Source of the DNA: Escherichia coli
GTDB lineage: Bacteria > Pseudomonadota > Gammaproteobacteria > Enterobacterales > Enterobacteriaceae
Length of the DNA stretch: 64,000 bases
Assembly (NCBI RefSeq): GCF_013315695.1
Contig: NZ_CP054353.1
Reading direction: 5' to 3' (one strand)
Below, piece by piece: positions 6,001-9,000 of this stretch; the first letter of the stretch is position 1, and every line of letters begins with the position of its first letter. Made by a program: the position numbers.

Positions 6001-9000
6001 CCCAGCGTGAAGGAGGCAGCCAGGTGGCATCAGAATACTCAAGCCAGGCCTGCGGCATATTGATGCGTAATACGCCCGCTCCGGTATCAGGACGAATATC
6101 CACTCCCGGCAACCCATGAAAATCCGCACACTGACCATCATGCCAGTAAACAACTTTATCCAGAGATTCTGCTGTTAACCCCATCAGTCTGACCATATCT
6201 GATGTCAGACAGGCCTGTGGCAATTTTTTTCTGCCTTATCTCCTGACGACTGAGGTTCAACAAATGAAATCTGTAACGATGCGGGAGAAATACTTTGCCC
6301 GTTAACAATCACATCCAGAAGATATTGCCCCGGCAGAACATAACCGGCTTCTGAAAAACGGGTGAAGTCAATATTTTTCTTGTCCGCTGCGTCAAGTACA
6401 TCTGTATTAAACTCAACGGCACTGGCTGCGTTACAAAACAGAGACAACAATATCACACAGGTAATATTGTTGACTGCAAAAGGTATTCTGTCTTTCATTC
6501 CACGCATCACCAGATTCACAAAAAAGATAAATAACCGGACATCTCACCGGAGTGACTCACTCATAATCGACCCGGAATCCCAGCACGGCAAAATAATTTC
6601 CGGCTTCAAGTTTTTTTCCGTTTCGCACAATTCTGAGGGTGTAACCCAGCGCTTCTTCATTACCCGTCAATGGTATTGCAGGCATTACTTTCCCTGCCCG
6701 GGCAATATTTCCCCTGGCATCAGCTATCTGCAGATTAATGCCTTTTGCCTGACCGGATAAATTAAACTTATCCGGCGTTTCACCCCGGACACCATCGAAA
6801 GTCACCCTTATCCGGGAATCAGAGAAAAGGTTCCCACCCTGACTGTTAAATTCACAGTTCCTGAGCCGTAGGCTGAATTTTCTTTCAGGTCCGGAAAAAC
6901 CATTCTGTAAATCCCGTACCGGGGTTTCCCCCATATCGATAATCTGCCAGGCGTCTTCCATCGCCAGAGTACAGGCAGGTCTGACAACCTCACCATGAAA
7001 AGCAGCCCTGCCGTCCCACCATACGTGTTCTTCTCCCCAGTATTCAGGAAGGGACATGCCGGGCGGAGGAAATGGCTCTGAAGATACAGCATGAAGTAAT
7101 GTACTCCAGAAATACATCACAAACAGAACACAAAAATTCTTCATACCTTAAATGTCGTTGTCAGACACAGGGTGGGTCTTGCCTCACCCTGTAAAAATCA
7201 GATGAATTACTGGTAACTTAAATTAAAGGTTGCGACTGCAGAAAAAGCACCCTCAGTGACTTGGGCGTTATTGGCTGACGACTTCTTAACAATCGCAGTA
7301 TAATGCAGCACATTATCACCATCTTTCAGGGTATTAGCATCACCTTCTGTGCCATCGAAAGAAACGTTTTTACCTGCAGCCTGAACTACAATAGCCGTAC
7401 CTGTACCGCCGGTGGTGTCTAACTCATCACTATGGGCAGCAACTATTGGGCCAGTAAAAGCTAACTTCACCGTCCCTGCTTTTGCAGTACCACCTACAGC
7501 ACTTGGTTTTTTGAATGCAGTAATATCACAATTAACTAACTCAATATCCAGATCCATTGGCTTGGATACACCTCCTGCTTCAAGGTAGCTTTTTGAGAGC
7601 TGCCCAAAATCAATAGACTGATCAGCTGATTTCTGAGAAATGCTGCATGGAGCAGCAACAACAGTTCCGTTAAAAGTTACTTTACCCTGCCCCTGAGGAA
7701 TAGTTGGAGCAGCATGTGCACCAAAAGACACCACTGCCATAGCTACCGCACCGGCAATAACCGACTTAATCATAAATAACAACCTCTTTTTCATTACTGA
7801 ACACACCAGAGATATCTGGCAATTTAAAATGACCCGATTACCTTTAATAACCAGATCAATACAAATAATATTCTCGTATTTTCAGGGCAGGTTATTTATC
7901 GACAGAATACTGATATAACCTGTCTGCTTTCTGATAAGGGCTTCTTTTTTTATCTTCCAGAAACTCCGGAATGCCATAATTTAGTCAAATGCCGACGACT
8001 CATCTGTATAATAAGGTGCAAGCCTTGCTGCAAGAGCATTCAGCCGTATAAGTCTCCCCAGTGTTGTACTGAAATACCCATTATTCATCTGGTATTTCTC
8101 GCAGACCTCCTTACGGGAGTGCCCACCTACCAGATAGTCCTTCATAGCCAGAATGACCCTGTCACTGTGAATAGAAGAAATACCTATCAGTAAAAAAAAT
8201 GCATTTCAGACATAGAGCCGGGCAACAGCACGCTCTCGCGTATATTCAGCAAAAACGCATTTCCTGACCGACTGATGACTTCATGATGCGCCATGTTTCC
8301 CCCTTCTGTCGGGCCCCTGGATATATGCTTCCGGCCCGGAAATACTCTTCACGCAATAAGTTAAATTTAGTTTTTTATGTTGTAAATATTGATTTAAACG
8401 ATCTTTTAACCCACAAAACAAAATTAAACTAGAATAAAACACTAACAACAAGAATACACTCAGATAAAAACATCATGGTGAATTGAATTTACAGCATAAA
8501 AGATCGTCTAAATGCATTTTTACGGACTTTCTTTTCACAGAAAAATAACACACAAAATGTGATACACATCAAATAAAGCCAACAAAAAGCAAATTCACTA
8601 AATTGCACAAATAAAGCAAACACAGAGAATAAAAATACCTTTCCGTTGATAACAGAGAGCATGATTTTTATTATTCGAAGAAACTTTGTTACAGTGAGAT
8701 GAGTGAATATATGAAGAATGAAATACTGGAATTTCTGAACAGGCATAATGGAGGGAAAACCGCAGAAATTGCGGAGGCGCTGGCGGTAACGGATTATCAG
8801 GCACGCTATTACCTGTTATTACTGGAAAAAGAAGGTGTGGTTCAGCGCTCTCCATTAAGGCGAGGCATGGCAACATACTGGCTTCTGAAAGGAGAGAAGC
8901 AGGCGGGGCAGAGCTGTTCTTCCACAACTTAATAACTCAATCTGTGGGCATGCTTCACTGAAACAGATAAAAGTTACATCAGAGTGCAGATTCAATTTTG

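What the first reader, a model, noticed from the sequence alone, without database searches (positions are those of the whole stretch)
6205..6230. papC usher frameshifted in an A-run (A7 where A8 would restore the frame)
Two overlapping ORFs cover full-length PapC, and inserting one A in the run restores ...GDKAEKKLPQACLTSDMV... Without the usher no P pilus can be assembled. This is either true pseudogenisation or a homopolymer sequencing error; together with the papB and acyltransferase cases the artefact explanation deserves serious weight.
Basis: seen in the sequence. Interest (0 to 1): 0.45.

Follow-up and report, generated by a model that had tools for sequence, protein, structure and literature searches.

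The report
Real inherited frameshift in papC usher
The P-pilus usher gene papC really is broken by a one-base loss in an A-run. The same break is found in many independent assemblies of one E. coli clone whose pap operon is decaying, so it is an ordinary pseudogene and not a sequencing error.

Summary
papC lies on the minus strand at 3989..6498. It has A7 (T7 on the + strand, 6224..6230) where 664 of 665 papC-bearing complete E. coli genomes do not have A7 and every copy read has A8. Adding one A gives an 836-aa PapC that matches solved PapC end to end.

The artefact reading is not supported. The exact truncated product (…GDKAEKNCHRPV) occurs on about 355 public contigs. At least seven assemblies of the same island carry A7: the window, MSB1_4I, two UMEA draft genomes, OZ039495, OZ040295 and a draft contig. 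They are 99.7-99.99% identical to each other with 0-1 gaps over about 14.5 kb, yet are distinct assemblies.

These seven also share a papB T9→T8 frameshift, and six of them (L011 has lost that stretch) share an IS1 that replaces 199 bp of papF. Neither IS1 nor a nonsense codon in iucA can be a homopolymer error. A sub-clade adds a 13-bp deletion inside papC. A close relative, AF14, has the papB lesion but an intact papC and an IS1 in papH instead.

The best reading is stepwise decay of a pap operon that had already lost its activator. RefSeq already annotates this papC as "frameshifted" in MSB1_4I. Interest is low.

The parts
3989..6498 (-). papC pseudogene (P-fimbrial outer-membrane usher). 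It would encode 836 aa if the run were A8.
   Evidence: ORFs and translations. Pfam PapC_N/Usher/PapC_C split over two ORFs. The repaired protein matches PDB 7lhg_C. The equivalent gene in MSB1_4I is annotated 'papC, frameshifted'.
6224..6230 (-). A7 homopolymer (T7 on the + strand), the site of the -1 deletion. The intact allele has A8 (GAA AAA AAA TTG = E-K-K-L, precursor codons 90-93).
   Evidence: Sequence. Run lengths measured in reference loci. Only 1 of 665 complete genomes carries A7.
6205..6498 (-). N-terminal fragment ORF of 97 aa. It holds the 27-aa signal peptide, about 64 residues of the usher N-terminal domain, and 6 out-of-frame residues (NCHRPV) before the stop.
   Evidence: This exact peptide is present on hundreds of public contigs.
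3989..6223 (-). C-terminal fragment ORF (744 codons from a TTG). It holds the rest of the N-terminal domain, the barrel/plug and the C-terminal domains. It has no signal peptide.
7981..8294 (-). papB (pap transcriptional activator), frameshifted. The T-run at 8192..8199 is T8 where the intact gene has T9. Only a 54-aa C-terminal ORF remains.
   Evidence: Alignment with intact papB. tblastn splits it into two frames. Run lengths. Distribution of the allele.
331..1098 (.). IS1 (768 bp) that replaces 199 bp of the 3' end of papF.
   Evidence: Boundaries and inverted-repeat ends, compared with AF14 which has intact papF. IS1 ORFs. IS1A annotation in MSB1_4I. Among complete genomes the junction is unique to MSB1_4I.
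1099..1397 (-). papF remnant: the first 100 of 167 codons.
   Evidence: tblastn. Annotated 'missing C-terminus' in MSB1_4I.
1..281 (-). papG 5' part (first 93 codons). The gene runs off the window start.
   Evidence: tblastn.
1472..3903 (-). papE (1472..1993), papK (2020..2556), papJ (2566..3147) and papD (3184..3903). All are full length and 100% identical to the AF14 proteins.
   Evidence: tblastn.
6557..7773 (-). papH (6557..7144) and papA (7207..7773), both full length.
   Evidence: tblastn.
8699..8929 (+). papI, intact (77 aa), divergent from papB.
   Evidence: tblastn. Annotation in MSB1_4I.

Best explanation
A genuine -1 deletion (A8→A7), of the kind replication slippage produces, disrupted papC at precursor codon 92 in the usher's N-terminal domain. 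It occurred in the ancestor of one E. coli clone and has been inherited vertically.

The only product carrying the signal peptide is a 97-aa fragment. The remaining 744 codons lack an export signal. No functional usher is therefore made and no P pilus can be assembled.

The lesion is one step in the progressive decay of this pap operon:
- A papB T9→T8 frameshift is shared with a wider set of relatives whose papC is intact. It is therefore older.
- papB encodes the operon's activator, so I infer that its loss silenced the operon and relaxed selection on the structural genes.
- Different sub-lineages then took different hits. The window's clone has papC A7 plus IS1 with a 199-bp deletion in papF. 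Part of that clone has a further 13-bp deletion in papC, and one member has an IS1-associated deletion from papD to papF. AF14 has IS1 in papH. B1.H1.18 has a truncated papA and other frameshifts in papC and papJ.

Shown here: the sequence state, its inheritance, the co-occurring lesions and their nesting.
Inferred: slippage as the mutational mechanism, transcriptional silence after papB loss, and relaxed selection.
For: (1) The site and its repair are verified.

(2) A7 is reproducible.
- The exact truncated N-fragment is on 282 + 69 + 4 contigs from NCBI, JGI, ENA and Logan.
- It is indexed in 461 blocks of the collection. In 450 of these the longest carrying contig is under 50 kb, which is typical of draft assemblies.

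(3) A7 is present in loci from the same island.
- These are L002 (MSB1_4I), L006 and L011 (the two UMEA draft genomes, GCA_000460675.1 and GCA_000461175.1), L013 (OZ039495.1), L014 (OZ040295.1), L015 (a draft contig), L018 (a metagenome scaffold) and L021/L023. L023 is named k119_, the MEGAHIT short-read style.
- They are 99.6-99.99% identical to the window with 0-1 gaps.
- They are distinct assemblies. The window differs from MSB1_4I by 30 SNPs and 2 indels over 64 kb, and those indels lie only in a T16 run and a G8 run.

(4) There are lesions that cannot be artefacts.
- Six of the seven long same-island assemblies (window, L002, L006, L013, L014, L015) have the IS1 next to a truncated papF. 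L011 has lost that stretch.
- iucA carries a TAG nonsense codon.
- A 13-bp deletion in papC (window 4136..4148) is found in L011, L013, L021 and L023.

(5) The order of events is supported.
- AF14 (L016) has the same island and papB T8, but papC A8 and an IS1 in papH.
- Nine complete genomes match the window's papB T8 stretch exactly. Of these, KE40 and OZ546993 have papC one base longer than the window, and AF14 (OZ546925) has A8 at this copy by direct count.

(6) MSB1_4I has only one papC place, so a second pap operon cannot complement it.

(7) NCBI's PGAP already calls this papC 'frameshifted' in MSB1_4I.

(8) Decay of fimbrial operons by point mutations and deletions is documented in E. 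coli adapted to carriage or asymptomatic bacteriuria (PMC4810142).
Against: - I could not inspect reads or confirm the sequencing platform of any assembly. That the UMEA drafts, the k119_ contig and the many short contigs are short-read assemblies rests on naming conventions and my own knowledge.
- Systematic nanopore under-calling of A8 would be reproducible. It clearly occurs at this very site in noisy assemblies: L007, L010 and L012 show 19-42 gaps against the window and also have shortened papB runs.
- The order of papC A7 relative to the IS1 in papF is unresolved. Both are exclusive to the same clone.
- Transcriptional silence after papB loss is inferred, not measured.
Confidence: 0.9

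Rival explanations
1. Homopolymer sequencing or assembly error: the genome really has A8 and an intact papC.
For: - The break is a -1 change in a 7/8-base run, the classic error type.
- Two other broken genes in the window also break at homopolymers: papB at T8 and the acyltransferase at G6.
- Visibly noisy public assemblies show A7 here together with many other indels (L007, L010, L012).
- MS 124-1 (L017) has A7 in an otherwise intact but divergent operon.
Against: - A7 is present in every one of at least 7 distinct, otherwise gap-free assemblies of this clone, and in hundreds of short contigs.
- These assemblies agree on every other homopolymer across 14.5 kb (0 gaps).
- 664 other papC-bearing complete genomes, many of which I would expect to be long-read based, do not match A7.
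- A7 is linked to an IS1 insertion and, in a sub-clade, to a 13-bp deletion in the same gene.
Confidence: 0.04
2. Reversible phase variation: the A8 tract works as a slipped-strand contingency switch, and A7 is a transient OFF state that can revert.
For: - A7 recurs in unrelated pap operons.
- L009 (OZ040780.1) matches the ABU 83972 pap operon at 100.0% over 10.3 kb in a single alignment piece one base shorter than the reference and has A7.
- L017 and L019 carry A7 in other pap alleles.
- The tract is therefore a mutational hot spot.
Against: - Within the clone every assembly examined is A7 and none has reverted.
- Only 1 of 665 complete genomes is A7, which is far from the mixed states seen at true contingency loci.
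- The clone has accumulated further irreversible lesions in papC and papF.
- From general knowledge, pap phase variation is known to work through Dam/Lrp/PapI/PapB methylation patterns, not through tract length.
Confidence: 0.03
3. Leaky rescue: transcriptional slippage on the A7 run, or -1 ribosomal frameshifting at A-AAA-AAU, yields some full-length PapC. The gene would then be attenuated rather than dead.
For: - By direct reading of the sequence, a -1 shift on the run restores the frame. P-site slippage gives …AEKKLPQ… and tandem slippage gives …AEKNLPQ….
- An AGGAG lies 10 nt upstream of the heptamer, the same spacing as the stimulator in dnaX (from my own knowledge).
- A/T runs are known slippage sites for E. 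coli RNA polymerase.
Against: - The downstream RNA folds no better than shuffled sequence: -17.8 kcal/mol, z = -0.04.
- From my own knowledge, efficient transcriptional slippage needs runs of about 9 or more.
- The arrangement is not conserved (1 of 665).
- The downstream ORF is not protected. A 13-bp deletion and 3 of 5 within-clone substitutions in papC are non-synonymous.
- With PapB and PapF broken, rescue would have no phenotype.
Confidence: 0.03

Closest known systems
PapC usher of uropathogenic E. coli (PDB 7lhg, 2vqi, 3fip; RefSeq 'P fimbrial usher protein PapC')
   Same: After adding one A, the protein is 836 aa with the PapC_N, Usher and PapC_C domains. It matches the solved 809-residue mature PapC with 2 substitutions. 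It sits in the canonical papI-BAHCDJKEFG order.
   Different: The reading frame is broken at precursor codon 92, so no full-length, exported usher is encoded.
papC pseudogene of E. coli MSB1_4I (NZ_LR898874.1, locus JMX41_RS04430, annotated 'frameshifted')
   Same: It has the same A7, the same papB T8, the same IS1 in papF and the same island. Identity is 99.95% over the whole 64-kb window.
   Different: It is a different isolate or assembly, with 30 SNPs and 2 homopolymer indels over 64 kb. Three of the SNPs lie in papC. The two synonymous ones (4928, 4955) are private to the window among the loci compared, while at 5229 (Gly in the window, Val in MSB1_4I and L018) the window agrees with L006 and L014.
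Reductive evolution of fimbrial operons in carriage and asymptomatic-bacteriuria E. coli (for example strain 83972: fim deletion, papG point mutations)
   Same: An adhesin operon is inactivated by small mutations and deletions while the genes remain detectable (PMC4810142).
   Different: The lesions here are a papB frameshift, a papC frameshift and an IS1 in papF. The source isolate's clinical background is unknown; the nearest relative is from a rectal swab.
Slipped-strand contingency loci and programmed frameshift sites at A-runs (for example dnaX A-AAA-AAG)
   Same: The event lies in a homopolymeric A tract, and a -1 shift would restore the frame.
   Different: There is no mixed tract length within the clone, no conservation of the shifted state, no significant downstream structure, and no protection of the downstream ORF.

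Membership tests
PapC/FimD outer-membrane usher (chaperone-usher pathway) | Domain architecture: N-terminal domain, usher barrel/plug, C-terminal domain | tested here: met
   Pfam PapC_N (split 1-53 and 59-146), Usher (E = 7.5e-153) and PapC_C.
PapC/FimD outer-membrane usher (chaperone-usher pathway) | Sequence identity to experimentally solved PapC | tested here: met
   Residues 28-836 of the repaired protein align to all 809 residues of 7lhg_C with 2 substitutions.
PapC/FimD outer-membrane usher (chaperone-usher pathway) | Position in a pap operon next to the chaperone papD and the pilin genes | tested here: met
   papI, B, A, H, C, D, J, K, E, F(remnant), IS1 and G are located by tblastn. 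The annotation of MSB1_4I agrees.
PapC/FimD outer-membrane usher (chaperone-usher pathway) | One uninterrupted ORF joining the signal peptide to the barrel (a functional gene) | tested here: not met
   A7 shifts the frame, and a stop follows 6 codons later. It is therefore a pseudogene of this family, not a functional member.
Homopolymer sequencing artefact | Not reproducible across independent assemblies or platforms of the same lineage | tested here: not met
   A7 is found in at least 7 distinct assemblies of the clone and on about 355 contigs that carry the exact truncated peptide. Reads themselves could not be examined.
Homopolymer sequencing artefact | Accompanied by other indel noise in the same assembly | tested here: not met
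   The window shows 0 gaps against L002, L006 and L014 over 12.5-14.5 kb. Over 64 kb it differs from MSB1_4I by only 2 indels, in T16 and G8 runs.
Slipped-strand phase-variable (contingency) locus | Both ON and OFF tract lengths found among close relatives | tested here: not met
   All clone members sampled are A7. Among complete genomes, 1 of 665 is A7. The sample of clone members is small, and single-culture heterogeneity cannot be tested here.
Programmed -1 frameshift or transcriptional slippage site | Conserved shifted arrangement with stimulatory elements and a downstream ORF under selection | tested here: not met
   The arrangement is rare. The downstream fold has z = -0.04. The downstream ORF carries a 13-bp deletion in a sub-clade. 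The actual frameshifting efficiency cannot be tested with these tools.

The most novel reading that the evidence does not exclude
The A8 tract in papC and the T9 tract in papB may be recurrent mutational hot spots through which unrelated E. coli lineages independently switch off P fimbriae. A7 appears in at least three different pap alleles: this clone, an ABU 83972-type operon that aligns without mismatches over 10.3 kb but is one base shorter, and the MS 124-1 operon. Loss might be adaptive during gut carriage, and low-level slippage on the run might leave a trickle of PapC.
Probability: 0.12. Interest if true: 0.4.

Novelty: already known. Interest (0 to 1): 0.15.

Why it matters
The value is mostly practical.
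- This clone scores papC-positive and papA-positive in PCR or gene-presence virulence typing. From my own knowledge, those markers count towards the usual ExPEC definition. Yet the clone cannot make P pili, because papB, papC and papF are all broken. Presence/absence calls therefore overstate its adhesin repertoire.
- It is a clean worked example that a homopolymer frameshift need not be an artefact. The test is to compare independent assemblies of the same lineage and look for linked lesions that cannot be errors.
- The nested lesions could serve as markers for sub-lineages. They are papB T8, then papC A7 with IS1 in papF, then the 13-bp deletion.

It does not reveal a new mechanism.

Tried and rejected
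- A 40-nt megablast centred on the run, meant to hit only A7 genomes, returned nothing. The likely cause is the 28-base word requirement combined with the low-complexity filter. The same query in blastn mode worked.
- Literature searches for the strain names MSB1_4I, UMEA 3304-1, UMEA 3190-1 and MS 124-1 gave nothing useful. The clone's sequence type and the sequencing platforms therefore remain unverified.
- Searches for published papC or papB frameshifts found only a general survey. It mentions papC/papGIII frameshifts in one other genome (PMC11203468).
- I considered programmed frameshifting because of the upstream AGGAG and an apparent downstream hairpin. I rejected it because the fold is no better than shuffles and the downstream ORF decays further in a sub-clade.
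- I could not order papC A7 relative to the IS1 in papF. Among complete genomes both occur only in MSB1_4I.
- My first coordinate mapping for iucA and the acyltransferase was off by one because of the T-run indel. It is corrected.

Full report
**1. What is in the sequence**

papC lies on the minus strand. Its ATG is at 6498 and its stop codon is at 3989..3991. On the gene strand the sequence reads …GGAGATAAGGCAG-AAAAAAA-TTGCCACAGG…. The run is A7, which is T7 on the + strand at 6224..6230.

The frame that starts at the ATG ends six codons after the run (…GDKAEKNCHRPV*, stop at 6205..6207). A second frame is open from 6223 to 3989 and begins LPQACLTSDMV…. The two ORFs overlap by 19 nt.

Pfam finds PapC_N profile positions 1-53 in the first ORF. 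It finds positions 59-146, plus the Usher domain (E = 7.5e-153) and PapC_C, in the second ORF.

Adding one A gives an 836-aa protein with …GDKAEKKLPQACLTSDMV…. Residues 28-836 of that protein align without gaps to all 809 residues of the PapC chain in PDB 7lhg, with two substitutions. The break is therefore at precursor codon 92, about mature residue 65, inside the usher's N-terminal domain.

**2. Is A7 unusual?**

Yes. A 95-nt query across the site hits 664 complete E. coli genomes, and only one, MSB1_4I (NZ_LR898874.1), is identical. The listed next-best hits are one base longer.

A 40-nt blastn gives the same picture: 665 genomes carry the site and 1 is identical. Reference copies whose runs I measured directly have A8: strain 2/0, B1.H1.18 and AF14.

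**3. Artefact or real?**

*The window is not the MSB1_4I assembly.* It aligns to MSB1_4I over all 64 kb. It differs by 30 substitutions and two 1-base indels, which fall only in a T16 run (30663..30678) and a G8 run (43616..43623). Two distinct assemblies therefore agree on A7.

*The truncated peptide is common in public data.*
- The 100-aa form is on 282 contigs (NCBI, JGI/IMG, ENA, Logan). These include E. coli UMEA 3304-1 and UMEA 3190-1.
- The 97-aa form is on 69 contigs.
- The 104-aa form is on 4 contigs.
- The index lists the 100-aa form in 461 blocks. In 450 of them the longest carrying contig is under 50 kb, the size profile of draft assemblies broken at IS copies.

*Same-island loci all carry A7.*
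- L006 and L011 are from the two UMEA draft genomes (GCA_000460675.1 and GCA_000461175.1).
- L013 is OZ039495.1 and L014 is OZ040295.1.
- L015 is contig 149 of a draft assembly.
- Each has the same flanking island as the window and is 99.7-99.99% identical over about 14.5 kb with 0-1 gaps. Each has A7 in papC and T8 in papB.
- Short contigs from a metagenome scaffold (L018) and from an assembly whose contig is named k119_… (L023) also carry A7. The k119_ name follows the MEGAHIT short-read convention, which is my inference.

*The caveat.* I could not see reads or platform metadata. The site is clearly also an error hot spot. L007, L010 and L012 have A7 together with 19-42 gaps against the window, shortened papB runs and fragmented pap genes. 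The clone's own assemblies show none of that noise.

**4. Linked lesions that cannot be homopolymer errors**

Gene-by-gene comparison of the operon:

| Gene | State in the window |
|---|---|
| papI, papA, papH, papD, papJ, papK, papE | full length |
| papB | split at the T-run 8192..8199 (T8; T9 when intact) |
| papC | split at the A-run 6224..6230 |
| papF | stops after 100 of 167 codons |

- papF stops where an IS1 (331..1098, 768 bp, with recognisable terminal repeats) replaces 199 bp.
- The same IS1 next to a truncated papF is seen in L002, L006, L013, L014 and L015. L011 has lost that stretch.
- Among complete RefSeq genomes the exact junction exists only in MSB1_4I.
- Elsewhere in the window, iucA has a TAG at codon 394 (38198..38200). 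MSB1_4I is annotated with an internal stop there too.
- Four A7-bearing loci (L011, L013, L021, L023) have an additional 13-bp deletion inside papC, corresponding to window 4136..4148.
- In L011 the gene calls show that IS1 follows a shortened papD directly and that only the papG C-terminal part remains.
- Five substitutions vary within the clone in papC, and three are non-synonymous.

This is the pattern of a gene under no constraint.

**5. Order of events**

- AF14 (NZ_OZ546925.1, L016) carries the same island with papB T8. Its papC is intact with A8, its papF and papG are intact, and it has an IS1 in papH instead.
- Nine complete genomes match the window's papB T8 stretch exactly. Of these, KE40 and OZ546993 have papC one base longer than the window, and AF14 has A8 at this copy by direct count.
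- Many more genomes, including ST131 strains EC958 and JJ1886, match at the same length with one mismatch.
- The papB frameshift is therefore older and wider, and papC A7 arose later within one clone.
- B1.H1.18 (L003) shows a third, independent route. Its papA is truncated by IS629 and a group II intron, and papC and papJ are frameshifted at other positions while this run is A8.
- PapB is the operon's transcriptional activator (established knowledge). I infer that its loss silenced the operon and let later hits drift to fixation.
- The order of A7 relative to the IS1 in papF could not be resolved.

**6. Mechanism and consequences**

A -1 slippage in A8 during replication is the simplest origin (inferred).

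The 97-aa product keeps the signal peptide but less than half of the N-terminal domain. The 744-codon remainder has no signal peptide. No usher reaches the outer membrane, so no pilus is assembled (chaperone-usher biology).

MSB1_4I has a single papC place, so there is no second operon to complement it.

Even if papC were repaired, the missing PapB and the truncated PapF adaptor would still prevent adhesive pili.

**7. Rivals**

*Sequencing error.* Rejected for the reasons in sections 3 and 4 (confidence about 0.04).

*Phase variation by tract length.*
- A7 does recur in other pap alleles.
- L009 (OZ040780.1) matches the ABU 83972 pap operon at 100.0% over 10.3 kb in a single alignment piece that is one base shorter than the reference, and it has A7 with papB T9.
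- L017 (MS 124-1) and L019 are further cases.
- The tract is therefore a hot spot. But the clone shows no reversion, has accumulated irreversible lesions, and A7 is found in 1 of 665 complete genomes.

*Programmed or leaky frameshifting.*
- A -1 shift on the run would restore the frame, and an AGGAG lies 10 nt upstream.
- The downstream RNA is no more stable than shuffles (z = -0.04).
- The arrangement is not conserved.
- The downstream ORF decays further in a sub-clade.

**8. Comparison with what is known, and novelty**

The gene is papC, a member of the PapC/FimD usher family, in pseudogene form. NCBI's annotation of MSB1_4I already labels it "P fimbrial usher protein PapC, frameshifted".

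Decay of fimbrial operons by point mutations and deletions is well described for carriage-adapted and asymptomatic-bacteriuria E. coli (PMC4810142). A survey of pap loci notes papC/papGIII frameshifts in another genome (PMC11203468).

Nothing here is a new kind of thing. The value lies in correct annotation, and in warning that papC-positive typing does not mean P-fimbriated.

**9. Verdict**

| Item | Result |
|---|---|
| Observation | confirmed |
| Confidence in the best explanation | 0.9 |
| Interest | 0.15 |
| Novelty | already known |

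Noticed in passing
window 8192..8199 (papB, 7981..8294, minus strand): papB has T8 where the intact gene has T9, leaving only a 54-aa C-terminal ORF. The same allele is in 9 complete genomes with identical flanks. Judging by same-length matches, it is also in many more, including ST131 strains EC958 and JJ1886. It predates the papC lesion.
   Followed up: yes
window 331..1098 and 1099..1397: A 768-bp IS1 replaces 199 bp of the 3' end of papF, leaving 100 of 167 codons. Among complete RefSeq E. coli genomes the junction is found only in MSB1_4I.
   Followed up: yes
window 38198..38200 (iucA, 37655..39379, minus strand): The aerobactin synthase gene iucA has an in-frame TAG at codon 394 of 574. 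MSB1_4I is annotated with an internal stop in the same gene. Aerobactin synthesis is probably lost, while iucBCD and iutA are annotated without pseudogene flags in MSB1_4I.
   Followed up: partly
window 43016..43021 (acyltransferase, about 42717..43170, plus strand): The acyltransferase reading frame switches at a G6 run. The gene is annotated 'frameshifted' in MSB1_4I as well. I did not check it in other relatives.
   Followed up: partly
window 30663..30678 and 43616..43623: A T16 run and a G8 run are the only two indel differences between the window and MSB1_4I over 64 kb. They are either hypermutable tracts or assembly uncertainty in long homopolymers.
   Followed up: no
window 59373..63924: 24 of the 30 substitutions against MSB1_4I cluster in the last 4.6 kb, in the region of the DUF932, antirestriction and IrmA-type island genes. 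This suggests recombination or gene conversion between paralogous island modules rather than clock-like divergence.
   Followed up: no
L011, L013, L021, L023 (corresponds to window 4136..4148): A sub-clade of the A7 clone carries an extra 13-bp deletion near the 3' end of papC. In L011 the gene calls also show that IS1 follows a shortened papD directly and that only the papG C-terminal part remains.
   Followed up: partly
L009 (OZ040780.1) 5200..15500: An ABU 83972-type papGIII operon aligns to strain 83972 at 100.0% over 10.3 kb in one piece that is one base shorter. It has A7 in papC. This looks like an independent occurrence of the same frameshift in another lineage.
   Followed up: partly
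window 4928 and 4955: Two synonymous substitutions in papC, 27 bp apart, are private to the window among all clone members compared.
   Followed up: no
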